From contig CAZMGM010000002.1 of the NCBI GenBank assembly GCA_964565865.1, positions 16,828 to 80,827 of the forward strand: a stretch of 64,000 bases of DNA. The letters are read 5' to 3'. This DNA comes from an uncultured Acidobacteriota bacterium (GTDB lineage: Bacteria; Acidobacteriota; UBA6911; RPQK01; CBDAPI01). The translations under genes were made by a program, and so were the position numbers. Shown in pieces: positions 4,705 through 44,253 of the stretch. The notes beneath the pieces were generated by a model. That model had not been told where the DNA came from. It saw nothing but the letters and a program-made list of their open reading frames with translations, and ran no database searches. Positions within the stretch are counted from its first letter, which is position 1. Each line of letters starts with the position of its first letter.

Positions 4705-5825
4705 TTGCGCCTGGGCTTGACAAGCTCTCGTTCAAACTCGATCCGGTAGAGCTCCAAAAAAGTCAGCCCGAGAGCCACCATGATGGGCCCCACTACCATC
4801 CCGGCAATGCCGAAATAAGAGATTCCACCCATAATGGAAAAAAAGACGAGCATGGTATGCATCCGAGTTTTGCCCTCGATCAGAGCCGGGCGCAACACAT
4901 TGTCGATGCCGCCTACAAATACGATCGAGAGCCCGATTAGAATGAGCGCCGTGACCGTCTTACCGATGGCCAACAAATAGAGGGCCCAGGGGAGCCACAC
5001 GATTGCCGTACCGACCAGGGGAACGAGTGAAAAAAGGGCTGTCAGGGTTCCCCAGAAAATAACGTTCGGTAGACCCACCAGAAAGAATGTGATCCCCCCC
5101 GCAACCCCCTGAGCCACTGCAGTGACCAGGCTGCCGATCACCGTCGCACTCGAGACCTCCTGAAACTTCTGAACGATCTGCCTCTCATACCTTTCCGAGA
5201 GGGGAGTCCACCTCCGGATCTGTTCAAAGAGGGCTGGTCCATCACGAAAGAAAAAAAACATGGTGACGATCATGATCAGGAAACTTGTCAACACATGCGC
5301 GATTCCAGAGAAAACAGCGGTGCTGTGGCGCAGGGCCCCCAGACTGATGCTCTGGAGCAAAGAAACCAGGGATTCCACTATGTCCACCCGGTCCAGGTCG
5401 ACCTGCTGGAGAGCCCAGCCTAAGTAAGGCTGCTCCCGAAGACTCATCATCTCCTGGATTTTGCCCTGTTCGATGGCCGTCTGAAGTTGCTGATAGGCTA
5501 GCGTTGCCTCAGATGCCAGCATGATGGCGAGGCCTGCAAAGGGAACAATGATCAATGCCGTAATCGCCAGGCAGGTGACCAGGGCAGCAAGATTGGTCCG
5601 GCCTCCCAAACGCCTATTGACCCAGTGGAAAGCCGGGAAGCACAAACAGGCCAGAATCGTTGCCATGAAAATGGACATGAGGAAGGGCTGAAAAATATGG
5701 AAGACGAAGTAGAGGACGAGCAGGGAAGGGGCAATCAGGAAAATCCGCAGGAATCGTCGTTCCTCCATTCTGAGTGGAAGTGTACCGACAAAGGATTGCA
5801 GGGTCCAGAAAACCGTGCGGCGCAA
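4701..5825 (-). CDS. AI-2E family transporter (PerM/UPF0118)
   Basis: 374 aa, multi-TM. The C-terminal half, with IFWGTLTALFSLVPLVGTAIVWLPWALYLL and GGIDNVLRP, is typical of the family. Confidence 0.8.
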   Translation of the reverse strand: MRRTVFWTLQSFVGTLPLRMEERRFLRIFLIAPSLLVLYFVFHIFQPFLMSIFMATILACLCFPAFHWVNRRLGGRTNLAALVTCLAITALIIVPFAGLAIMLASEATLAYQQLQTAIEQGKIQEMMSLREQPYLGWALQQVDLDRVDIVESLVSLLQSISLGALRHSTAVFSGIAHVLTSFLIMIVTMFFFFRDGPALFEQIRRWTPLSERYERQIVQKFQEVSSATVIGSLVTAVAQGVAGGITFFLVGLPNVIFWGTLTALFSLVPLVGTAIVWLPWALYLLAIGKTVTALILIGLSIVFVGGIDNVLRPALIEGKTRMHTMLVFFSIMGGISYFGIAGMVVGPIMVALGLTFLELYRIEFERELVKPRRK

Positions 5826-36601: not shown

Positions 36602-37618
36602 CTAAAGCACTTTCTCAGCGATCTGAACGGCATTCAGAGCTGCCCCTTTTCTCAGCTGATCGCCGGCCAGAAACAGGGCCAGCCCCCTGCCGTCTGAGCG
36701 AGAGAGATCCTGTCGGAGTCGCCCAACCAGAACAGCGTCGCCATGACTGGCCAGAAGAGGTTCCGGATGCCGATTCTTCTCTCGATCATCCAACAGTTCT
36801 ACTCCCTCTGCCCGTGCCAGGGTCAACCGGGCTTCCTCGACGGAAAGAGAATTCTCAAACGTGAGATAGACCGCTTCGCAGTGTGCTCGAAAGACAGGAA
36901 CCCGCACACAAGTAGCCGCGATCTGCAGGGTATCGTCACCGAGAATCTTGTGTGTTTCCTCGGCCATCTTAAGCTCTTCGGTGTTGTAACCGGACTCTAT
37001 ATCCATCTTCGACTCATGACAAAAGACGTTGAAGATGTACTGCCGATCGAAGAATTCCTGGGTGATGGGATCTCCTGCAATCCAGTCACGCGCCTGCTGC
37101 TCCAGCTCGGCCATCGCAGTGGCTCCGGCTCCCGAAGCTGCCTGATATGTGCTGACTATAATTCGCCTGATCCTAGCCTGTTGATGAAGAGGCCAGATTG
37201 CAACGCACAGCAGGATCGTTGAGCAGTTGGGAACGGAAATAAGCCCTGAATGGTCAGCCAGATGGTGCGGATTCACTTCGGGTACTATCAGAGGAGTTCC
37301 TGGATCCATCCGAAAAGCGGAGGAGTTGTCCACGACCAGACAGCCCCGTGAGGTGGCAACCGGAGCGAATTTCCGACTGGTGGAAGCGCCCGCTGAAAAA
37401 AAAGCAATATCGACTCCTTCAAAGGAGTTCTCAGTCAGCACCTCAACTTCATAAGTCTTGCCCTCAAAAACAACTTTCGTCCCCGCCGATCGATGGCTGG
37501 CCAACAGGCGCAGACCGCTCATCGGGAACTGGCGCTGGGACAGGACTTTTATGATCTCTCGGCCCACCACTCCAGTTGCTCCGGCTATTGCGACAAAAGG
37601 TTCTTCCGACATGCTCAT
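36602..37618 (-). CDS. asd: Aspartate-semialdehyde dehydrogenase
   Basis: 338 aa. Contains VAIAGATGVVG, the active-site region VPNCSTI, and the C-terminal QLRKGAALNAVQIAE. Confidence 0.92.
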   Translation of the reverse strand: MSMSEEPFVAIAGATGVVGREIIKVLSQRQFPMSGLRLLASHRSAGTKVVFEGKTYEVEVLTENSFEGVDIAFFSAGASTSRKFAPVATSRGCLVVDNSSAFRMDPGTPLIVPEVNPHHLADHSGLISVPNCSTILLCVAIWPLHQQARIRRIIVSTYQAASGAGATAMAELEQQARDWIAGDPITQEFFDRQYIFNVFCHESKMDIESGYNTEELKMAEETHKILGDDTLQIAATCVRVPVFRAHCEAVYLTFENSLSVEEARLTLARAEGVELLDDREKNRHPEPLLASHGDAVLVGRLRQDLSRSDGRGLALFLAGDQLRKGAALNAVQIAEKVL

Positions 37619-37815
37619 GGGCTCGGTTGAAGTATTTCTAGTCTCATGCCATAAGAATGTGTGGGCCTAGCAGCCTGTGGTGGAAGAGACTGAAGCCAGA
37701 CTTTTCTGGGGCCTCTTGAAGTTGAGAAAAAGGGTCCTTCCCCTCCCCACTTTCTGGATGTCGAAGTCCAGGGCCCGACCTGGTCGTTGTCATAGCTGAA
37801 GTACCACTGTGCCAT
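37615..37815 (-). CDS. Possible small GYF_2 (DUF4339)-like protein
   Basis: MAQWYFSYDNDQVGPW resembles the start of the GYF_2 domain (WYY..g.q.GP). AGGA lies 8 nt upstream of ATG 37815. The C-terminal half is poorly domain-like, so this may be degenerate or spurious. Confidence 0.3.
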   Translation of the reverse strand: MAQWYFSYDNDQVGPWTSTSRKWGGEGPFFSTSRGPRKVWLQSLPPQAARPTHSYGMRLEILQPSP

Positions 37816-37958
37816 ATCTGGAATCCTCTCAGACGATTTCAATCCAGATGGGTGCAAATGTCCTACGCGATGGCAGGAGGAAAGATCGAATGCTGACCAG
37901 TGCGGTTCCAGACTTCAAATTTCGACAACTCGAAACCAACGGAACCGGCCAAAGATGC

Positions 37959-38285
37959 TCAGGCTACTTCGTCAATCTTGGCAGCCAGAATGAAGTCGCT
38001 CTCTGTCAGGCCGTCGATCTTGTGAGTCCAGATCTTGACTCCGGCCTTTCCCCAGCTCAGGAAAATATCGGGGTGATGACCTTGTTGCTCAGCAATTTCC
38101 CCAGCCTCGTTTACGAAATTGAGTGCAGTCCGAAAATCGGGGAAGAGGTATTCCTTTTCCAGATGATGTTCATCAACTACGCTCCATCCCATAACCTGGG
38201 CCAGAAGGGATCCAATTTCCTTTCCCCGAAGGGGAGGCACTCCCCCTCGGCAGGGAACGCAATTCTTTCCGCTTAGATGAGACAT
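37959..38285 (-). CDS. Pterin-4-alpha-carbinolamine dehydratase (PCD/DCoH family)
   Basis: 108 aa. Contains EAGEIAEQQGHHPDIFLSWGKAGVKIWTHKIDGLTESDFILAAKID, the PCD HHP signature. It lies 21 nt downstream of the radical SAM gene. Confidence 0.88.
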   Translation of the reverse strand: MSHLSGKNCVPCRGGVPPLRGKEIGSLLAQVMGWSVVDEHHLEKEYLFPDFRTALNFVNEAGEIAEQQGHHPDIFLSWGKAGVKIWTHKIDGLTESDFILAAKIDEVA

Positions 38286-38306
38286 CTTGTCAAGCGAACG
38301 GACGAG

Positions 38307-40313
38307 TCAGGTCGTTGAGATCCGAACCAGAGCATCCTTCTGCTCCTTCTTGCCCATCACCTGTTCTTCATAATACTTCTTTACCTGGGCGGCCTGCCTG
38401 GCTGCCTTGCGGCGCGCCATCTTCTCGTCGCGGGCTGTCTGCGGCAAGGAGCTCTTCTTGCGCTGAGATGCGACATCACTCGCGTTGAGGTTCAGAGAGT
38501 GTTCGTAGCTCTGCAGGTCAACGTTCTTTCCCCCGGCAAAGATTTCGTGTCTCCCGTGTTCCTCGTACCATTTCGCGACTGTGGCATTCTGGTGCATATG
38601 CTCAATGATATTGCGCCATCCGTGTCCGGTGTTATAGGCACAGAAAGAGATCTCGCCTTCCTGAGTAGCATAGGGGATGATACACATCTCAGTGCGGCGG
38701 AAGTCGTAGTTGAAGAGATCTTGAAACCACATCCCGGCAACAAAGAGGAAGTTCCAGCGATCGTCTCTCCGTTTCTTGCCGTCTCCATAGCTGCGGCCGG
38801 TCAGTCCAAAACTTTTGTCGAACTTCTTGAGAACCTCCCACAGAGTCAACTTTGAAGGAGCCGCGAAGGGTCGATAGTTCTTGAGTAAGGCCAGACCCAT
38901 CATAAAGTTGGAAAAGTTCTTGCCACGCCCTGCGTCCGTGATGGCCTGCATGTCTCGGACCAGACCTGGAATACTGAGGAACTCGGGTACAGCAGCGTAC
39001 TCCTTAGTTTCTTTGTCAACCATCACGGCGGTTCCCACACCGCAATTGGGATGGCATCCGCAGCTAACCTGACCCCAGTCGGCCTCGGGACCATGGACAA
39101 GATCAGCAAAATCGGAAAAGGCTCCCATCAGGGAGAGGGGAAACCAATCTCGCGTAGGCTCTGTCATCCCGGTTTGTTTTTTTACATCGTGGGCGAGATG
39201 CGAGAGAGTATAGCGCTGGCGCAGCCGCCGTTCGTCAGTGACGGCTTCATCCCTGCCAGTGAAGGAAACCGGCTGGAAAGCAATGAAGGCGACTTTTTTC
39301 GGGTTGTCCATGGCAAACCGGATGATCGGCCCCACCTGATCGTTGTTAACGTCGTTCACCAGCGTCGTGACAAGAACAATCTCAATTCCAGCCGCATGAG
39401 CGTTCTCAATCCCCCGCAGCTTAATGTCGAAAAGGTTGCCGATGTGGCGATGGCTGTTGGCTTCGTTACCCACTCCATCGAACTGATAGTAAAGAAAGCG
39501 CAAGCCCGCCTCGGCAGCCCTGCGGCTGAACTCTTTGCTCTGGGCGAATTCGATCCCGTTGGTGGCCGCCTGAACGCTGTTGTACCCGATCTTACGGGCA
39601 TACTTCACCGCCCGGAAAAAGTGAGGTGAGATGGTCGGCTCTCCGCCCGAAAACTGGACCGACATTTGGCGACGAGGCTTGATTTTCAGGGCATTATCGA
39701 GAATTTCCTTGATCTCCTGCCACACCAGCTCGTGCACGAAACCAACCTGGTTGGCGTCCATGAAGCAAGGGTCGCACATCATGTTGCAACGATTCGTCAG
39801 ATCCACAGTCAGCACTGAGCCTCGGCCGTGGCGGATTGTGCTCGAACCATGGTTGTGGAGATCCTCATCGTTATGAGCCCGGATGTCACGACCAGGAAAA
39901 TTGCCCTCGATCCAACGCAGGAAGTTGGCATCAATTGACATGAGGTCTTCGATCTTGCCATGAATCGGGCATTCTTTGACCATCCAGATCTCGTTGTTCT
40001 TCTCAACGACACTGGCTTTGATCTCACCTACTTTCTCGTCAATGAGAACGTGATAGTCCTCTTCGCCATTGATGATCTTTTCCCGAGCTTCCACTACACA
40101 CTTGGGACACAGAGAATCGGTTTCGCGGGGCCAGCCTAGGTTTGGTTTCGTTTTTTGCCAGGATTTCAGTAGTGGCTTCTCGGACCAGTTAGGAGTAAAA
40201 GAAGGCCTCTTGCGATACTTGTTAAAAAACTGGATAAAATCAAATGCCTTGCCCGCGGTAAAGCAGAGGGCACTGTCGCCGTACTTCCATGCGGTTGAAC
40301 TTGCTCTTGACAT
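38307..40313 (-). CDS. Large radical SAM enzyme, COG1964-type architecture (MJ0619 / tetraether lipid synthase Tes/GDGT-MAS-like)
   Basis: 668 aa.
- Radical SAM core: CNMMCDPC (CxxxCxxC) and FSGGEPT.
- N-terminal zinc-ribbon-like CPKC...(40 aa)...CPIHG ahead of the core.
- C-terminal Cys motifs CGCHPNCG and MCIIPY...ISFCAYN.
- Lys/Arg-rich C-terminal tail.
The radical SAM call is secure. The Tes-like subfamily assignment rests on remembered architecture, not a search. Confidence 0.85.
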   Translation of the reverse strand: MSRASSTAWKYGDSALCFTAGKAFDFIQFFNKYRKRPSFTPNWSEKPLLKSWQKTKPNLGWPRETDSLCPKCVVEAREKIINGEEDYHVLIDEKVGEIKASVVEKNNEIWMVKECPIHGKIEDLMSIDANFLRWIEGNFPGRDIRAHNDEDLHNHGSSTIRHGRGSVLTVDLTNRCNMMCDPCFMDANQVGFVHELVWQEIKEILDNALKIKPRRQMSVQFSGGEPTISPHFFRAVKYARKIGYNSVQAATNGIEFAQSKEFSRRAAEAGLRFLYYQFDGVGNEANSHRHIGNLFDIKLRGIENAHAAGIEIVLVTTLVNDVNNDQVGPIIRFAMDNPKKVAFIAFQPVSFTGRDEAVTDERRLRQRYTLSHLAHDVKKQTGMTEPTRDWFPLSLMGAFSDFADLVHGPEADWGQVSCGCHPNCGVGTAVMVDKETKEYAAVPEFLSIPGLVRDMQAITDAGRGKNFSNFMMGLALLKNYRPFAAPSKLTLWEVLKKFDKSFGLTGRSYGDGKKRRDDRWNFLFVAGMWFQDLFNYDFRRTEMCIIPYATQEGEISFCAYNTGHGWRNIIEHMHQNATVAKWYEEHGRHEIFAGGKNVDLQSYEHSLNLNASDVASQRKKSSLPQTARDEKMARRKAARQAAQVKKYYEEQVMGKKEQKDALVRISTT

Positions 40314-40592
40314 GAGTGTAAACCTTCCTCTTCAGTACTTTACGAAAACAACAACGCTACCTTGGACACTCAGTTGGCCACGCCTACTCAGGCACAGCCA
40401 GCGGGTACAATGAGGCACCGGAAACTTGCAATGTCGCTTAATTTCAAACCTATAAGTATCGGTATCCCCTCCCCGTTCGTCAATAGAGGATCGACTGCCT
40501 CGATGGCACAGTTTCGTTTTTCCTGAGTAATTGATCCGTCCTGTCCGAGTCTAAATTTGATAAGATTTGATCGTGGATTGAGAACTGTAAAG

Positions 40593-41198
40593 ATGCCCAA
40601 CTTAAGAATCACGAACGGAGCCCGCACACAAATTTTGGCTGCCCTCGAGCAGCAACAGCCCCAAAAGACCGCTTTGCGACTTGAGGCGACGACCAACGGG
40701 ACAGCCGAGTTCGCCTATGGCATGCGACTGGTTGGTGCAGATGATCAGCGCGAGGATGACGAGATCGTCGAAAGCAACGGGGTGAAGGTGCTGGTTGATC
40801 CCGCAAGTGCGCGCCACCTGGAGGGTGCAACGGTTGACTATGAAGAAGGAATCCTGAACAGCGGATTCCGTTTTGACAACCCGAATCAGCCAAATATCCC
40901 GGAGCTGGGAGAAGGCCCGCGGGCGGATTTGAGTGGACCGACGGCCGAAAAGGTGGAACAGCTGATCAACACGGAGATCAATAGTGCCGTGGCTGCCCAT
41001 GGTGGCCAGGTCAATTTTCTTGGCGTCAAGGAGAATCGGGCTTACCTCACTTTTGGAGGTGGTTGCCACGGTTGCGGAATGGTTGATGTCACTCTCAAGC
41101 AGGGAATCGAAGCCCGAATCAAAGAGCTTGTCCCTGAGATTGAGGAGGTGGTCGATGTAACCGACCACTCGGCCGGGGAAAATCCATTCTATCGATAG
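40593..41198 (+). CDS. nfuA: NfuA-type Fe-S cluster carrier (Cys-less IscA-like N-domain plus NifU C-terminal domain)
   Basis: The N-terminal HesB/IscA-like fold lacks the cluster cysteines. The C-terminal Nfu domain carries GGGCHGCG. The track ORF starts at TTG 40557; ATG 40593 (MPNLRITNGA) is preferred. Confidence 0.8.
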   Translation: MPNLRITNGARTQILAALEQQQPQKTALRLEATTNGTAEFAYGMRLVGADDQREDDEIVESNGVKVLVDPASARHLEGATVDYEEGILNSGFRFDNPNQPNIPELGEGPRADLSGPTAEKVEQLINTEINSAVAAHGGQVNFLGVKENRAYLTFGGGCHGCGMVDVTLKQGIEARIKELVPEIEEVVDVTDHSAGENPFYR

Positions 41199-41307: not shown

Positions 41308-42540
41308 GTGACTTCTACATCGCCGGAAAATCTACATGGAATCCTGGGTTTCATAAGTTTGAGTACATCGATTTTGAATAGGTCCGGAAAAAAAGTCTGT
41401 TTGCTCCTGGTGCTGGCAGTGAAAATCAGCACCGGATGTAACGAGACCGAGCACCCGGACACACTGCGACAGGTGGAAAAGGAGGGCTATACCTATTTCG
41501 GAGTTGCACCCTTTGAAGCACCTCTCCTCCACCAGGTTGAAACCGTGTTCGTGGGACCAGAGCCTGCACTGGCCAAGCAGATTTCCCAGAGAATTGGAGA
41601 AGAGTTGAAACTTCCTGAAGTGGAACCCTTCTGGATCCAGCGGGGCCACAGCGGACTCATCTCGGCCCTGCTCAATGATGAAGTGGACCTGGTGATCTCC
41701 GTCTTAGGAAAGACCCCTGCGCGTGAGCGTCAGGTAGACTTTTCAGAGACCTACTACACCTCTGAGCTGGTGGCTGTGATCAACCCGGTTCGCAACGACA
41801 AAATCCGCAGCAACAACCTGGCCCAGGCCAGGATCGGCGTCCGCGAGGGGACAGCGGGAGAGGAAATCGTCCGGGCCAAGTACCCCGAAGCCAAGATAGT
41901 CTCTATTGGGACTCTAGATGAAAGCATTCTTCAGCTTCGCAGCGGGGATGTCGACGTCGTGATCGACGACCGCATCATGGCGGCGTACTCTTTGGCGACA
42001 ATGACCGGAGTGTCTCACCTCGAAATCCTGCCCGATTTCATTGTCGCAAGCGTCGAGTGCGGTGTCGCTCTCAGAAAAGGGCAAGATCAACTGCTGCAAC
42101 TCGTCAACGAGGCGATCCGGGAGTCCAGCCGTAAATACCAGGGCTGGATCGACGAGCAATTCAACCCAAAATTATTGCGCAAGGTGATGGCCCGATACCA
42201 GACACGCCAGGACGAATTGAGACGGGCCAAGAGGCCCCGGCGCGTCTCGATCCGGATTTCCAAGAGCCGGTCCTCTGATTTTGACATCTATCGCGTGGCC
42301 AATCTCACCTATGTGCTTCGCAATACCAATGGCAAAACTTTCACGAGTTCCAAGATTGATTTCCAGGGCCGCACCGGAGTCAGTTCGGTGACCATTCCAC
42401 CCGGGACCTATAGCGTAACTATCACCAAATTCAATACTACTTTTGGAACGCTCGTGATCCGGCCCGAGGATCCGACGCGCATCACTGTAAACATCAGACT
42501 GCAGGCCAGTGGTCAGTTCACGATGAAACGTGATTCATAG
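41308..42540 (+). CDS. Family-3 solute-binding protein (amino-acid-binding type), putative lipoprotein with a C-terminal beta-rich extension
   Basis: SBP_bac_3-like core (DLVISVLGKTPARERQVDFSETYY...RSGDVDVVIDD). Signal and lipobox KKVCLLLVLAVKISTGC. The likely start is TTG 41374. The C-terminal 130 aa or so (ISKSRSSDFDIYRVANLTY...TYSVTITKF...) is unrelated to the SBP fold. Confidence 0.7.
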   Translation: MTSTSPENLHGILGFISLSTSILNRSGKKVCLLLVLAVKISTGCNETEHPDTLRQVEKEGYTYFGVAPFEAPLLHQVETVFVGPEPALAKQISQRIGEELKLPEVEPFWIQRGHSGLISALLNDEVDLVISVLGKTPARERQVDFSETYYTSELVAVINPVRNDKIRSNNLAQARIGVREGTAGEEIVRAKYPEAKIVSIGTLDESILQLRSGDVDVVIDDRIMAAYSLATMTGVSHLEILPDFIVASVECGVALRKGQDQLLQLVNEAIRESSRKYQGWIDEQFNPKLLRKVMARYQTRQDELRRAKRPRRVSIRISKSRSSDFDIYRVANLTYVLRNTNGKTFTSSKIDFQGRTGVSSVTIPPGTYSVTITKFNTTFGTLVIRPEDPTRITVNIRLQASGQFTMKRDS

Positions 42541-42853
42541 CTGCATCTTCCCGCCCCGTTAAAGCAGTGAGACCAGAACCGAATAGCCGCTTTCAGGACG
42601 GCGCTCAGCGGCGTGGGTGCCCAATTCTCCCTCGTCCCTTTTCGGCTTGGAACTTCGGCGGAGTATTTTCTGTGGGGTGCTGCCCACCAGATATTTACTG
42701 ACACCGCCTCGTAGGCCTCAAGGTGGGCGGAAAGACATTGCCTGGCCCGCAAGGCCCCAGGAAATCAGTCAAGGAATCCCCGTCCAGCCCCCAAAGGGCG
42801 ACAGAGAGAGCCAGTTTGACAACCATTATCTGGATTCTGGAGAGAAAACACAT

Positions 42854-42882
42854 GGAACTTAAACGGCCCAAAATCAATCTAA
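42854..42882 (+). promoter_or_regulatory. Possible autoregulated ECF-type promoter
   Basis: GGAAC (42854-58), about 17 nt, then AATCTAA (42876-82). This resembles the ECF GGAAC-N16/17-CGTCT pattern and lies about 30 nt upstream of ATG 42914. Confidence 0.25.
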
Positions 42883-42913
42883 TGAAGTGATCGCTAGAAT
42901 AGAGTCGGCCAAA

Positions 42914-43567
42914 ATGACCCAGCTAATGACCTCGATCCATTCCGAGATACAAGTGTCCCAGGGCGAGGCCCTGGTGGTGCGTCTAAAAGAACGCGAAGAA
43001 AACGCTTTCGAGGAGGCATTCGAACTCTACAAGGATATGGTCTATTCGCTGGCCCTTAAACTCTTGAGTGACAAATCGGAGGCCTACGACGTCACCCAGG
43101 ACGTTTTTTTAACTCTCTACAAACAGATCAGGCGTTTTCGCGGTGAATCCAGTCTCAAGACCTGGCTTTACCGGGTCACGTTGAATCAGGCAGCCAATCG
43201 CAATCGCTGGTGGCGGAGGCGTTTCAACAGCCGCTTCAGCTCCGTAAGCATAACCGGTGGTTTTGAGGAGCGGGCATCCATAGAGCCGATCAGCCAGGAT
43301 CCCTCGTTGGATCGACAAATCCTGTCAATTGAAGCACGAAAATCCATCCAGGACGGTCTGGATGCTCTGCCTTTTGACCAGAGGGCTGCTGTAATCCTGA
43401 GAGATGTACAGCAGCTCACTTACGAGGAGATTGCTGCAACGATCGGGGTGTCCATGGGAACCGTCAAGTCACGTATTTCCAGAGGGAGAGAGAGGCTGCG
43501 CCGTGTTCTCCAACGTTACAAGCCCGGAGGTCAGACGTGTACTGTGAACAAATGTGCCACAAGCTGA
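42914..43567 (+). CDS. ECF (group 4) RNA polymerase sigma-70 factor
   Basis: Region 2 (DVTQDVFLTLYKQIRRFRGESSLKTWLYRVTLNQAANR) and region 4 (LTYEEIAATIGVSMGTVKSRISRGRERL). The track ORF begins at GTG 42887. Confidence 0.88.
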   Translation: MTQLMTSIHSEIQVSQGEALVVRLKEREENAFEEAFELYKDMVYSLALKLLSDKSEAYDVTQDVFLTLYKQIRRFRGESSLKTWLYRVTLNQAANRNRWWRRRFNSRFSSVSITGGFEERASIEPISQDPSLDRQILSIEARKSIQDGLDALPFDQRAAVILRDVQQLTYEEIAATIGVSMGTVKSRISRGRERLRRVLQRYKPGGQTCTVNKCATS

Positions 43568-44253
43568 ACGAGTTTATCGATACCGAGCTTTCGGATTTTG
43601 AGAGGCAGGTCGTCCAGCGTCACCTCGACCACTGCCCAAAGTGCCGCCTGCGCCTGGGCGAGCTTGGACTTGTACGCAATGCTCTTTCCATTCCTGTTCG
43701 CTTACCCGAGCGAAGCCGGCGAAGGATGCGACTCGCTTTGCTCTCGCAGGCTCACAGAAAGTGGTCGGACTACCCGCTGGAGGTGTTGAACGGGTTCAGA
43801 AGTTTTCTAAGGGACCTGGATCGCAATGCAGCCTTGTTCCGACTCTCTGCATTGCCTCTCTCACTGGCAATGATGGTACTGCTGGCTTCTCAGTTACCAC
43901 AGCTTCATTCTCAAACCTGGACTTTTCAGGTCTATGCCAGCCAGCAGCCAGCTCCCTCGACTGCGAACCGACCACCCGTACTCGTCCAAGGGCAGCAATC
44001 AGCCCAGAGTGTCAGCAAACTGGTCAACACGGCCTGGAGGATTCCCTACGAAGACTCGTTCTCCCTGATAGCTGAAGTTCGACCGGAGGGTAACGCCCGG
44101 ATCGAGAATGTTCTGGAGTATCCTAAGACTATGGAGCTCCTGGAGGCTGTGGATCTCACGCTTCAGGAGAGCCATTTCGAGAGGCCCTCCGGGATGTCGA
44201 ATGCCTTTCTCATATACTCCTTTCAGAAGGTGGATGTTTACGGGGGGCTGTAG
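43537..44253 (+). CDS. Anti-sigma factor (zf-HC2 type) with one TM helix and a periplasmic domain
   Basis: N-terminal C..x..H(x3)C(x2)C: MCHKLNEFIDTELSDFERQVVQRHLDHCPKCR. TM helix LSALPLSLAMMVLLASQL. Overlaps the sigma gene; the alternative start is ATG 43552. Confidence 0.8.
   Translation: MYCEQMCHKLNEFIDTELSDFERQVVQRHLDHCPKCRLRLGELGLVRNALSIPVRLPERSRRRMRLALLSQAHRKWSDYPLEVLNGFRSFLRDLDRNAALFRLSALPLSLAMMVLLASQLPQLHSQTWTFQVYASQQPAPSTANRPPVLVQGQQSAQSVSKLVNTAWRIPYEDSFSLIAEVRPEGNARIENVLEYPKTMELLEAVDLTLQESHFERPSGMSNAFLIYSFQKVDVYGGL

What the first reader, a model, noticed from the sequence alone, without database searches (positions are those of the whole stretch)
37959..41198. Tes/GDGT-MAS-like (COG1964-type) radical SAM enzyme co-transcribed with a pterin dehydratase and divergent from an Fe-S carrier
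**Seen in sequence.** The 668-aa ORF (38307-40313, minus strand) has these features:
- a canonical CxxxCxxC radical SAM site (CNMMCDPC) and a GGE motif (FSGGEPT);
- an unusual N-terminal zinc-ribbon-like module (CPKC ... EIWMVKECPIHG);
- two further C-terminal Cys motifs (VSCGCHPNCG and MCIIPYATQEGEISFCAYN);
- a basic N-terminal extension of about 65 aa and a Lys/Arg-rich C-terminal tail, which suggests membrane-surface association.

**From established knowledge (recalled, not searched).** This arrangement is what I remember for the archaeal MJ0619 / MA_1486 family. That family was first proposed to methylate a pterin in methanopterin synthesis. It was later shown to be the tetraether (GDGT / macrocyclic archaeol) lipid synthase. 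Bacterial homologues are suspected of making membrane-spanning branched lipids, but their products are not established.

**Inference.** A pterin-4a-carbinolamine dehydratase gene follows only 21 nt downstream on the same strand. An NfuA-type Fe-S carrier is divergently transcribed 243-280 bp upstream. The trio could form a functional unit: a multi-cluster radical SAM enzyme, its cluster donor, and a pterin-recycling enzyme. The pterin link revives the question of what this family does in bacteria.
Basis: partly seen in the sequence, partly recalled or inferred. Interest (0 to 1): 0.75.

Follow-up and report, generated by a model that had tools for sequence, protein, structure and literature searches.

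The report
Long bacterial Tes-like radical SAM enzyme
This acidobacterial gene encodes a relative of the archaeal enzyme that joins two lipid tails into membrane-spanning lipids, but it is a distinct long bacterial form lacking one of that enzyme's iron-sulfur clusters, and its supposed link to a neighbouring pterin gene holds in only one lineage.

Summary
The 668-aa protein has the GDGT-MAS/Tes fold (model pLDDT 87.5; TM 0.87-0.88 to 7TOL/7TOM). It keeps the rubredoxin-like Fe site, the radical-SAM cluster and the C-terminal catalytic [4Fe-4S] site with its Met ligand.

It is not a Tes equivalog. It scores 320 bits against a 450-bit cutoff. It has no Cys where GDGT-MAS binds its N-terminal auxiliary cluster, and it carries conserved N- and C-terminal extensions. 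It belongs to a long bacterial paralogue group found in at least 596 species genomes, mostly Acidobacteriota. By length and similarity this matches Acid_2410 of Solibacter usitatus, not the short Acid_5929 type that the literature treats as the main brGDGT-synthase candidate.

The PCD gene lies downstream in only 8 of 86 loci, and these form one clade. NfuA or IscA-like carriers are adjacent in 16 of 86 loci, in three different arrangements. No other neighbour is shared widely, and the window has no hydroxylase, MoCo or ether-lipid genes.

The most likely function is Tes-type tail-to-tail C-C coupling of bacterial lipids, which is untested. The pterin link is probably inherited adjacency. Interest is moderate.

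The parts
38307..40313 (-). Long Tes-like radical SAM enzyme, 668 aa (stop codon 38307-38309)
   Evidence: ORF. Pfam Radical_SAM and Zn_ribbon_HMPTM. NCBIfam Tes model 320 bits, below the 450-bit cutoff. 7TOL match 2.2e-60. AlphaFold2 pLDDT 87.5. Foldseek TM 0.87-0.88 to 7TOM/7TOL.
40122..40313 (-). N-terminal extension, residues 1-64: helix 2-31 followed by a basic linker. It lies outside the Tes model match, which begins at residue 65.
   Evidence: The Tes HMM aligns from residue 65. Net charge +8, pI 10.2. Predicted helix 2-31. The linker 32-64 has 73% median identity across 84 orthologues.
39936..40130 (-). Rubredoxin-like Fe domain, residues 62-126 (C69, C72, C115, H118). The two knuckles are 42 residues apart, against 20 in MJ0619.
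   Evidence: Pfam PF23545 matches residues 62-126. The ligands are invariant in 84 of 84 orthologues. The motif C9-X2-C12-X20-C33-X2-H36 of GDGT-MAS is given in PMC9433317.
39819..39875 (-). Degenerate N-terminal auxiliary-cluster segment, residues 147-165 (HNDEDLHNHGSSTIRHGRG). It has no Cys, and it is His-rich and conserved.
   Evidence: It aligns to CPYDCGLCPNH of 7TOL, i.e. native C73, C77, C80 and His. 83 of 84 orthologues have no Cys here. It is the only internal stretch of the model with pLDDT below 50.
39765..39788 (-). Radical SAM cluster motif CNMMCDPC, residues 176-183
   Evidence: Invariant in 84 of 84 orthologues.
39039..39065 (-). First motif of the C-terminal cluster site, SCGCHPNCG, residues 417-425. 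C424 aligns to the Cys of MJ0619 'HQHCG'. C418 and C420 are additional invariant Cys.
38631..38732 (-). Second part of the C-terminal cluster site, residues 528-561. M528 corresponds to Met439 of GDGT-MAS, and C544 and C558 are the other ligands.
   Evidence: Alignment to 7TOL, allowing for the inferred 20-residue tag offset. Met439 as a ligand is described in PMC9433317. Invariant in 84 of 84 orthologues.
38310..38588 (-). C-terminal extension, residues 576-668, with a charged helix at 627-651
   Evidence: It lies beyond the Tes HMM match, which ends at residue 575. Net charge +6, pI 9.7. Predicted helix. Present in all orthologues, at 44-55% median identity.
37959..38285 (-). Pterin-4a-carbinolamine dehydratase (PhhB/DCoH type), 108 aa, 21 nt downstream of the rSAM gene; probably co-transcribed
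   Evidence: Pfam Pterin_4a 3e-29. The motif E-x3-H-H-P-x5-W-x9-H-x8-D starts at residue 66. No terminator-like site was predicted in the 21-nt gap. The adjacency is conserved only in the window's own clade.
40593..41198 (+). NfuA-like Fe-S carrier, 201 aa from ATG 40593 (an alternative TTG start lies at 40557), transcribed divergently from the rSAM gene
   Evidence: Pfam Fe-S_biosyn and NifU. NCBIfam NfuA model 141.7 bits, below its 269-bit cutoff. The N-terminal domain has no Cys and the C-terminal domain has CHGC. Homologues are 199-201 aa.
40314..40592 (.). Divergent intergenic region. It holds a sigma-70-like site TTGACG-17-GATACT facing the rSAM gene (40483..40455, - strand) and a conserved GGATCAnTT box.
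   Evidence: Promoter scan. TTGAC and GGATCA-TT are invariant across six loci of the clade (alignment A3). No Rfam element. No inverted repeat.

Best explanation
The 668-aa gene encodes a radical SAM enzyme with the Tes/GDGT-MAS fold. It belongs to a distinct 'long' bacterial paralogue group, about 660-725 aa, which by length and similarity matches Acid_2410 of Solibacter usitatus.

Shown here:
- It keeps three of the four metal sites of GDGT-MAS: the rubredoxin-like Fe site, the SAM-cleaving [4Fe-4S] cluster, and the C-terminal [4Fe-4S] site with its Met ligand.
- It has lost the Cys ligands of the surface N-terminal auxiliary cluster.
- It has gained conserved N- and C-terminal extensions.

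Inferred:
- It performs Tes-type chemistry on bacterial lipids. A 5'-deoxyadenosyl radical abstracts H from the terminal carbon of an alkyl or acyl tail. The carbon radical is held on a sulfide of the C-terminal cluster. A second SAM activates a second tail, and a C-C bond joins the two tails. The products would be membrane-spanning lipids of the iso-diabolic acid or brGDGT type.
- Electrons reach the active site by a route that no longer uses the N-terminal cluster.
- The basic, partly amphipathic extensions help place a soluble enzyme at the membrane surface.

On the neighbours:
- The downstream PCD is an ordinary PhhB-type dehydratase. It has sat next to this gene since the ancestor of one acidobacterial lineage. 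It is probably co-transcribed but has no demonstrated functional tie.
- The NfuA-like carrier is a plausible donor or repairer of the enzyme's [4Fe-4S] clusters, but this association is also limited to certain lineages.
For: Identity and fold:
- The best NCBIfam model is Tes (2e-95, residues 65-575).
- The best PDB sequence match is GDGT-MAS 7TOL (2.2e-60).
- The AlphaFold2 model has pLDDT 87.5 and pTM 0.89.
- Foldseek gives TM 0.87-0.88 to 7TOM/7TOL, with the next hit, MoaA, near 0.5.

Catalytic sites:
- C69, C72, C115, H118, C176, C180, C183, C424, M528, C544 and C558 are invariant in 84 of 84 orthologues.
- They align to the ligands described for GDGT-MAS.
- Lloyd et al. place the C-S intermediate on one of the [Fe4S4] clusters (PMC9433317). 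Assigning it to the retained C-terminal cluster follows a 2026 review figure that measures distances from the lipid's terminal carbon to 5'-dAH and [Fe4S4]C (PMC13459092), so this assignment is partly my inference.

Distinct paralogue group:
- The window protein scores 320 bits. Three of four motif-bearing representatives tested score 516-593 bits and the fourth, P0175, 432.5. Motif-less relatives score 204-414 bits.
- P0173 is a short, motif-bearing form in a bacterial context (MurB, sigma-54 activator, GroEL). It matches 7TOL at 4e-128.
- S. usitatus has both Acid_5929 (545 aa, 40% identity to MA_1486, 1e-139) and Acid_2410 (714 aa, 30%, 4e-62).
- Solibacteraceae-like orthologues of the window protein are 698-725 aa.

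Biology:
- The family occurs in at least 596 species genomes, mainly Acidobacteriota.
- The literature reports that these Acidobacteria make iso-diabolic acid and brGDGTs and have no Mss homologue (PMC13159169).
- Choosing a strain by its Tes homologue led to the discovery of brGDGT production in S. usitatus.
- The window is a housekeeping region, and the gene has its own conserved promoter-like site.

Neighbours:
- PCD is adjacent in 8 of 86 loci, all in one clade.
- NfuA or IscA-like genes are adjacent in 16 of 86 loci in three arrangements.
Against: - No bacterial Tes homologue of either type has a demonstrated activity (PMC11868695).
- S. usitatus also has the short, more Tes-like paralogue, which could be the real tetraether synthase. 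That would leave the long form with a different role.
- In M. acetivorans the second Tes homologue, MA_1114, made only traces of macrocyclic archaeol (PMC8941075). Paralogues can therefore diverge in function.
- The Terriglobus roseus relative P0131 lacks the C-terminal cluster Cys, although subdivision 1 acidobacteria make iso-diabolic acid. The match between this family and the lipid phenotype is therefore not clean.
- Losing the N-terminal cluster might change more than the electron route.
- No lipid-synthesis gene is a conserved neighbour.
- Orthology to Acid_2410 itself is inferred from length and similarity statistics, not from its sequence.
Confidence: 0.55

Rival explanations
1. The long paralogue acts on lipids or another hydrophobic substrate, but it does something other than tail-to-tail coupling. 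Examples would be a different C-C or C-S bond, a cross-link, or a modification of lipids that are already membrane-spanning. The short Tes-like paralogue would then be the actual coupling enzyme in bacteria that have both.
For: - S. usitatus has two paralogues with very different similarity to archaeal Tes.
- The long form fails the curated Tes cutoff and lacks one cluster.
- It has extra invariant Cys, C418 and C420, and a conserved His-rich segment of unknown role.
- Divergent relatives have lost the C-terminal cluster, or even the CxxxCxxC motif, which shows that this lineage is functionally plastic.
- MA_1114 is a precedent for a Tes paralogue with weak coupling activity.
Against: - The whole catalytic apparatus used by GDGT-MAS for coupling is invariant.
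- The fold matches over nearly the full length of the template.
- The long form is far more widespread among the genomes sampled here than a mere accessory enzyme would suggest.
- Acidobacteria have no Mss homologue to do the coupling.
Confidence: 0.3
2. One reading: the radical SAM enzyme, the PCD and NfuA form one functional unit. A pterin cofactor, recycled by PCD, would take part in the enzyme's reaction or in its electron supply.
For: - The gap between the rSAM and PCD genes is 21 nt, on the same strand, with no terminator-like site predicted in it.
- The pair persists in one clade down to about 69% rSAM identity, while the outer flanks change. L005 keeps PCD but not NfuA or the SBP gene.
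- The PCD has the canonical catalytic motif.
- There is no aromatic amino-acid hydroxylase in the 64-kb window that would explain the PCD in the usual way.
- MoaA, a pterin-pathway radical SAM enzyme, lies 1.5-3.4 kb downstream in a few other loci.
Against: - PCD is absent from within 6 kb of the gene in 78 of 86 loci, and all PCD-linked loci form a single clade. One ancestral juxtaposition explains this.
- Nothing in the GDGT-MAS mechanism uses a pterin.
- The old pterin-methylase assignment of MJ0619 was replaced by the lipid synthase function (PMC9433317).
- A hydroxylase could lie elsewhere in the genome.
Confidence: 0.08
3. It is a pterin C-methyltransferase, as in the legacy annotation '7,8-dihydro-6-hydroxymethylpterin dimethyltransferase' that some databases still use.
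For: JGI gives this name to several family members. The adjacent PCD is pterin-related.
Against: - The name comes from MJ0619, which structure and enzymology showed to be GDGT-MAS (PMC9433317).
- No cobalamin-binding or other methyl-donor domain was detected.
- Acidobacteria are not known to make methanopterin (general knowledge).
- The PCD link is confined to one clade.
Confidence: 0.02

Closest known systems
GDGT-MAS / tetraether synthase Tes (MJ0619, PDB 7TOL/7TOM; MA_1486; NCBIfam NF045702)
   Same: - Same overall fold (TM 0.87-0.88).
- Same rubredoxin-like C-X2-C...C-X2-H site.
- Same CX3CX2C radical SAM cluster.
- Same C-terminal site of three Cys plus Met, which is where I assign the substrate-sulfur intermediate.
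- It is the best hit in every search.
   Different: - Only 28-35% identity, and 320 bits against a 450-bit equivalog cutoff.
- No Cys at the N-terminal auxiliary [4Fe-4S] site; a conserved His-rich segment sits there instead.
- 22 extra residues between the rubredoxin knuckles.
- A 64-aa N-terminal extension and a 93-aa C-terminal extension.
- Two extra invariant Cys (C418, C420).
- A bacterial host, whose lipids are acyl or alkyl chains rather than isoprenoid.
Short bacterial Tes homologues (Acid_5929 of S. usitatus, 545 aa; P0173 found here)
   Same: Bacterial members of the same superfamily. They are proposed brGDGT synthases and are likewise untested.
   Different: The short type has the CPxxCGxCxxH motif. 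In the representatives tested here it passes or nearly reaches the Tes cutoff (432-593 bits), and P0173 matches GDGT-MAS at about 1e-128. The window protein is about 34% identical to P0173 and belongs to a separate clade.
Acid_2410 of S. usitatus (Q025C7, 714 aa), the 'second Tes homologue' in Halamka et al. 2022, Table S5
   Same: - It is long.
- It is about 30% identical to archaeal Tes, at about E 1e-60.
- Solibacteraceae-like and Bryobacterales orthologues of the window protein have similar lengths and are 70-71% identical to it.
   Different: The window protein is shorter (668 aa) and comes from a different acidobacterial lineage, which also carries the PCD neighbour.
Mss, the membrane-spanning lipid synthase of Thermotoga and Clostridia (Sahonero-Canavesi et al. 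2022)
   Same: A radical SAM enzyme that couples two fatty-acid tails. This is the reaction proposed here. A 2026 paper reports from model superposition that Mss has a Tes-like catalytic architecture (PMC13274423).
   Different: It is a different family. The literature reports no Mss homologues in Acidobacteria, and Mss is reported only from anaerobes. No sequence comparison was made here.
NfuA with lipoyl synthase LipA (recalled: McCarthy and Booker 2017)
   Same: A radical SAM enzyme whose auxiliary cluster takes part chemically in the reaction, paired with an NfuA carrier that can rebuild that cluster.
   Different: This is an analogy only. No evidence here shows that NfuA serves this enzyme. 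The adjacency is limited to a few clades.

Membership tests
Tes / GDGT-MAS (NF045702 equivalog) | Radical SAM CX3CX2C cluster and GGE SAM-binding motif | tested here: met
   CNMMCDPC at residues 176-183 and SGGEPT at 222-227. Pfam Radical_SAM 2.7e-18. Invariant in 84 of 84 orthologues.
Tes / GDGT-MAS (NF045702 equivalog) | Rubredoxin-like mononuclear Fe site, C-X2-C...C-X2-H | tested here: met
   C69, C72, C115 and H118. Pfam PF23545 2.5e-12. Invariant in 84 of 84. The spacing is 42 residues, against 20 in MJ0619.
Tes / GDGT-MAS (NF045702 equivalog) | N-terminal auxiliary [4Fe-4S] cluster (C73, C77, C80 and His in MJ0619; CPxxCGxCxxH) | tested here: not met
   The aligned segment is HNDEDLHNHGSSTIRHG, with no Cys. 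83 of 84 orthologues have no Cys here. The model is of low confidence only in this stretch.
Tes / GDGT-MAS (NF045702 equivalog) | C-terminal [4Fe-4S] cluster with three Cys and a labile Met (Met439) | tested here: met
   C424, C544, C558 and M528 align to the MJ0619 ligands. Invariant in 84 of 84. This rests on alignment only; no metal analysis was possible.
Tes / GDGT-MAS (NF045702 equivalog) | Whole-protein score at or above the curated equivalog cutoff (450 bits) | tested here: not met
   320.2 bits. For comparison, three of four motif-bearing representatives score 516-593 bits and the fourth, P0175, 432.5 bits.
Tes / GDGT-MAS (NF045702 equivalog) | Overall four-domain fold | tested here: met
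   Foldseek 7TOM/7TOL E 4e-35, TM 0.87-0.88 when normalised to the target. The model has pLDDT 87.5.
Tes / GDGT-MAS (NF045702 equivalog) | Catalyses tail-to-tail C-C coupling of lipid chains | not testable with these tools
   This needs expression and lipid LC-MS. The literature states that bacterial homologues are unconfirmed.
Long bacterial Tes-like paralogue (Acid_2410 type) | 660-725 aa, about 30% identity and about E 1e-60 to archaeal Tes, with N- and C-terminal extensions | tested here: met
   668 aa. 2.2e-60 to 7TOL. 28% identity by Foldseek. The extensions lie outside the Tes HMM match. Acid_2410 is 714 aa, 30.1% identical, 4e-62.
Long bacterial Tes-like paralogue (Acid_2410 type) | Direct orthology to Acid_2410 (Q025C7) | tested here: inconclusive
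   The sequence could not be retrieved, and searches returned no named Solibacter entries. The Solibacteraceae MAG orthologue L023 is 71% identical to the window protein.
Pterin-4a-carbinolamine dehydratase (PF01329 / COG2154) | Pfam domain above the gathering score, and the catalytic motif [EDKH]-x3-H-[HN]-[PCS]-x5,6-[YWF]-x9-[HW]-x8,15-D | tested here: met
   101.4 bits against a cutoff of 26. The motif starts at residue 66. The motif is recalled from Naponelli et al. 2008, a paper that was not held. All NCBIfam equivalog cutoffs are missed; the best score is 107 against 133.
Pterin-4a-carbinolamine dehydratase (PF01329 / COG2154) | A partner aromatic amino-acid hydroxylase nearby (phhAB-type context) | tested here: not met
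   No hydroxylase domain was found among about 40 window proteins scanned. The rest of the genome was not available.
NfuA Fe-S carrier | Degenerate A-type N-terminal domain without Cys, plus a C-terminal Nfu domain with CXXC | tested here: met
   Pfam Fe-S_biosyn at residues 16-110 and NifU at 133-199 of the 213-aa ORF. The N-terminal domain has no Cys, and CHGC is present. The NCBIfam NfuA equivalog scores 141.7 against a cutoff of 269, so that cutoff is not met.
HMPTM (7,8-dihydro-6-hydroxymethylpterin dimethyltransferase, legacy name) | Conserved pterin or methanopterin pathway context | tested here: not met
   PCD is adjacent in only 8 of 86 loci, all in one clade. There are no pterin-pathway genes in the window. 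The prototype, MJ0619, has been reassigned to GDGT-MAS.
Mss (bacterial membrane-spanning lipid synthase) | Sequence homology to the Mss proteins of T. maritima and T. ethanolicus | not tested
The literature reports no Mss homologues in Acidobacteria.

The most novel reading that the evidence does not exclude
The long paralogue that lacks the N-terminal cluster, rather than the short Tes-like one, is the general acidobacterial enzyme that couples iso-C15 chains into iso-diabolic acid and brGDGT skeletons. It would be the missing functional counterpart of Mss in Acidobacteria, many of which are aerobes. Published screens may have under-counted it because it sits at their usual 30% identity cutoff. 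It would also show that Tes-type coupling needs only the radical SAM cluster, the C-terminal cluster and the rubredoxin-like site.
Probability: 0.3. Interest if true: 0.75.

Novelty: new variant of a known kind. Interest (0 to 1): 0.45.

Why it matters
Branched GDGTs are among the most widely used temperature and pH proxies for past continental climates. Yet the bacterial enzyme that joins the two alkyl chains has not been shown in Acidobacteria, the classic source organisms.

This analysis gives three practical leads:
- 'Bacterial Tes homologues' are at least two different proteins.
- The long form, found in this window, is very widespread. It keeps the catalytic cluster but lacks one auxiliary cluster.
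- It lies right at the identity cutoffs used in published gene surveys, so it may be under-counted.

This yields a clear experiment: express the long and short forms side by side. It also warns against treating all 'Tes hits' in metagenomes as equivalent.

The PCD and NfuA neighbourhood, which prompted the original flag, is not a general feature of the family. It should not be used to argue for a pterin role.

Tried and rejected
- **The window's own contig.** An exact-protein look-up for pre-computed annotation found no record. I scanned the window's proteins against Pfam directly instead.
- **A named Solibacter orthologue.** A second large protein search with the Solibacteraceae orthologue L023, and two cluster look-ups, returned no organism names for S. 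usitatus. The link to Acid_2410 therefore rests on length and similarity statistics from a supplementary table.
- **Papers not held.** The Naponelli 2008 paper on COG2154 was not held, nor were the supplements of Sahonero-Canavesi 2022. A search for the locus tags in main texts found nothing.
- **A riboswitch in the rSAM/nfuA spacer or around the locus.** None was found at gathering scores or at E <= 1. There was no inverted repeat in the spacer either.
- **Short and long Tes types adjacent in L027 and L078.** I suspected this because of 543-548-aa rSAM neighbours. They proved to be SPASM-type, AhbD/NirJ-like proteins, so the idea was rejected.
- **First NfuA survey.** It used a mis-framed query and found nothing. 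I corrected this. tblastn alone also missed the divergent NfuA of L003 and L004, so profile searches on ORFs were used.
- **A widely conserved operon partner.** Clustering all neighbour ORFs showed that none is shared by more than 22 of 83 loci, and the shared ones follow lineage.

Full report
**Observation.**
- The minus-strand ORF 38307-40313 encodes 668 aa.
- It contains CNMMCDPC (residues 176-183), FSGGEPT (221-227), CPKC (69-72), CPIHG (115-119), SCGCHPNCG (417-425) and MCIIPY...FCAYN (543-561).
- A 108-aa ORF follows 21 nt downstream on the same strand.
- An NfuA-like ORF is divergent, 243 nt away from TTG 40557 or 279 nt from ATG 40593. The ATG gives the 201-aa length seen in homologues.
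- The N-terminal 64 residues carry net +8 (pI 10.2) and the last 93 residues net +6. No segment is hydrophobic enough to span a membrane.
- Pfam confirms Radical_SAM and Zn_ribbon_HMPTM for the rSAM protein, Pterin_4a for the PCD, and Fe-S_biosyn plus NifU for the carrier.

**What the protein is.**
- The best curated family is the tetraether synthase Tes model NF045702 (2e-95, residues 65-575). The score is 320 bits against a 450-bit equivalog cutoff.
- The best solved structure by sequence is GDGT-MAS from M. jannaschii (7TOL, 2.2e-60).
- An AlphaFold2 model built on a 29-sequence alignment is confident (mean pLDDT 87.5, pTM 0.89).
- Foldseek returns 7TOM/7TOL first, with TM 0.87-0.88 normalised to the target. 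MoaA is next, near 0.5.
- Homology and fold are therefore secure.

**Metal sites.** Lloyd et al. (PMC9433317) describe four cofactors in GDGT-MAS:
- a rubredoxin-like Fe (C9-X2-C12-X20-C33-X2-H36);
- an N-terminal auxiliary [Fe4S4]N cluster (C73, C77, C80 and a His);
- the radical SAM cluster;
- a C-terminal [Fe4S4]C cluster with three Cys and the labile Met439.

I mapped these using the pairwise alignment to the 7TOL chain, allowing for what I infer to be a 20-residue tag offset between chain and paper numbering.
- The window protein keeps the rubredoxin site (C69, C72, C115, H118), the RS cluster (C176, C180, C183) and the C-terminal site (C424, C544, C558, M528).
- Where GDGT-MAS has CPYDCGLCPNH, the window protein has HNDEDLHNHGSSTIRHG, with no Cys.
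- Across 84 orthologues from species-representative genomes, every retained ligand is invariant. So are two extra Cys, C418 and C420.
- 83 of the 84 have no Cys in the N-cluster segment. That segment is itself conserved (77% median identity) and His-rich.
- It is also the only internal part of the model with pLDDT below 50.
- The rubredoxin knuckles are 42 residues apart, against 20 in MJ0619. The N-terminal extension (helix 2-31 plus a basic linker) and the C-terminal extension (charged helix 627-651) are present in all orthologues.

**Two bacterial paralogue groups.** A search of 1.84 billion representatives found few full-length relatives.
- Three of the four CPxxCGxCxxH-bearing representatives I scored reach 516-593 bits on the Tes model and pass its cutoff. 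The fourth, P0175, scores 432.5 bits, just below it.
- All motif-less relatives score 204-414 bits.
- One motif-bearing form, P0173 (545 aa), lies in a plainly bacterial neighbourhood (MurB, sigma-54 activator, Fpg, GroEL). It matches GDGT-MAS at 4e-128.
- Table S5 of Halamka et al. lists two Tes homologues in Solibacter usitatus. Acid_5929 is 545 aa, 40.2% identical to MA_1486, at 1e-139. Acid_2410 is 714 aa, 30.1% identical, at 4e-62.
- The window protein fits the second, long type. It is 668 aa, 28% identical to 7TOL, at 2e-60. Its Solibacteraceae-like orthologues are 698-725 aa.
- Zeng et al. and Chen et al. highlighted the short type.
- I could not retrieve Q025C7 itself, so this assignment is an inference.

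**Distribution and context.**
- The best 80 are 67-88% identical. They come from Pyrinomonadaceae, Blastocatellia, Terriglobia, Acidiferrales, Bryobacterales, Solibacteraceae and MAGs labelled Gemmatimonadota.
- I called ORFs in all 86 loci held and searched them with profiles.
- PCD lies directly downstream, with gaps of 12-187 nt, in only 8 loci. On a neighbour-joining tree these form one clade together with the window.
- Within that clade the rSAM-PCD pair persists while the flanks change. L005 keeps PCD but has neither NfuA nor the SBP gene.
- NfuA is divergent upstream in 7 loci of the same clade and convergent downstream in 4 loci of the sister clade. A short IscA-like gene lies about 1.0-1.3 kb downstream in 5 loci of neighbouring clades.
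- Clustering all neighbour ORFs showed that no family is shared by more than 22 of 83 loci. The shared sets are lineage-specific, for example SurE-PCMT-DedA in Pyrinomonadaceae.
- The 64-kb window is a housekeeping region: trp operon, rho, lon, clpXP, tig, asd, smc. It has no aromatic amino-acid hydroxylase, no MoCo genes, and no ether-lipid or ring-synthase genes.
- No Rfam element lies near the locus.
- The spacer holds a TTGACG-17-GATACT site facing the rSAM gene. Its TTGAC, and an adjacent GGATCAnTT box, are invariant in six loci of the clade. This fits back-to-back promoters.

**How it most likely works.**
- Shown: the fold; the retained RS and C-terminal cluster ligands; the retained Met; the lost N-cluster ligands.
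- Inferred: the enzyme uses the GDGT-MAS mechanism. H is abstracted from a terminal carbon, the radical is captured on a cluster sulfide, a second SAM is used, and a C-C bond forms. The substrates would be bacterial alkyl or acyl chains, giving iso-diabolic-acid or brGDGT-type lipids.
- Lloyd et al. place the C-S intermediate on one of the [Fe4S4] clusters. I assign it to the C-terminal cluster on the basis of a 2026 review figure (PMC13459092).
- The lost cluster lies on the surface in GDGT-MAS. Its loss more probably changes electron delivery than the chemistry itself. The new extensions may give a docking or membrane-contact surface.
- NfuA as a donor or repairer of the clusters is reasonable by analogy with NfuA and LipA (recalled knowledge), but it is supported here only by patchy adjacency.
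- The PCD has the canonical catalytic motif (the motif is recalled, and the source paper was not held). It looks like an ordinary PhhB-type enzyme. Its adjacency is best explained by a single ancestral juxtaposition.

**Caveats.**
- No bacterial Tes homologue has been shown to be active.
- The short paralogue might be the real synthase.
- The second Tes homologue of M. acetivorans had almost no coupling activity.
- The Terriglobus roseus relative lacks the C-terminal Cys, although subdivision 1 strains make iso-diabolic acid.
- Published screens use cutoffs near 30% identity. The long form sits right at that level, so reported absences of 'Tes homologues' in Acidobacteria may partly be a threshold effect. 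This last point is my inference.

**Verdict.**
- The family assignment is right at the level of superfamily and fold, but the protein is a distinct long variant that fails two defining tests of Tes.
- The proposed three-gene functional unit, and the pterin link in particular, is not supported beyond one lineage.
- Novelty: a new variant of a known kind.
- Interest: moderate, 0.45.

Noticed in passing
window 37615-37857 (-): An 80-aa ORF lies in the 340-nt gap between PCD and asd. It matches only the first 15 residues of the 75-aa GYF_2 protein of the related locus L001, then diverges, and it has no Pfam hit. It is probably a decayed gene. L001 has an amidohydrolase, the GYF_2 gene and an aspartokinase between PCD and asd, and the window lacks these.
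   Followed up: partly
L001 about 5640-5740 (nfuA/rSAM spacer): About four tandem copies of a unit of roughly 23 nt (CATCGTGGCAACGATCCTGCCTT) are inserted in the divergent spacer. They are absent from the window and from L007 (alignment A3).
   Followed up: no
P0131 (Terriglobus roseus WP_014786616.1), P0139, P0172, P0143: More distant relatives of the long form have lost further sites. P0131, P0139 and P0172 lack Cys of the C-terminal cluster site. P0143 lacks the CxxxCxxC motif itself. This suggests non-catalytic or differently working offshoots, one of them in a cultured subdivision 1 acidobacterium.
   Followed up: partly
L010-L012, L014, L019 (upstream of the long Tes-like gene); L027 4956-6587; L078 8208-9854: Other radical SAM genes sit next to the long Tes-like gene in some clades. 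An uncharacterised protein of about 390-425 aa lies directly upstream in the MAGs labelled Gemmatimonadota. A 543-548-aa SPASM-type, AhbD/NirJ-like protein lies downstream in two Terriglobia-type loci.
   Followed up: partly
L006 9370-11028; also L017, L024, L025, L078: MoaA lies 1.5-3.4 kb downstream of the long Tes-like gene in L006, L017, L024, L025 and L078, and an IscA-like carrier was detected in L006, L017 and L025. These loci fall in two neighbouring clades. This is another lineage-limited neighbourhood of Fe-S clients.
   Followed up: partly
window residues 147-165 of the rSAM protein (39819-39875): The segment that replaces the N-cluster motif is a conserved His-rich stretch (HNDExLHxHG...HGRG). 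Its role is unknown. A different metal site cannot be excluded.
   Followed up: no
database names for P0092, P0341, P0349 and others: JGI names for members of this one family are split three ways: 'tetraether lipid synthase', '7,8-dihydro-6-hydroxymethylpterin dimethyltransferase' and 'uncharacterized radical SAM'.
   Followed up: no
window 41308-44253 (+): An SBP_bac_3 solute-binding protein with a long C-terminal extension (410 aa) follows nfuA. It is conserved beside nfuA in the window's clade. An ECF sigma factor and a zf-HC2 anti-sigma pair follow, and these are also present in L001 and L002.
   Followed up: no
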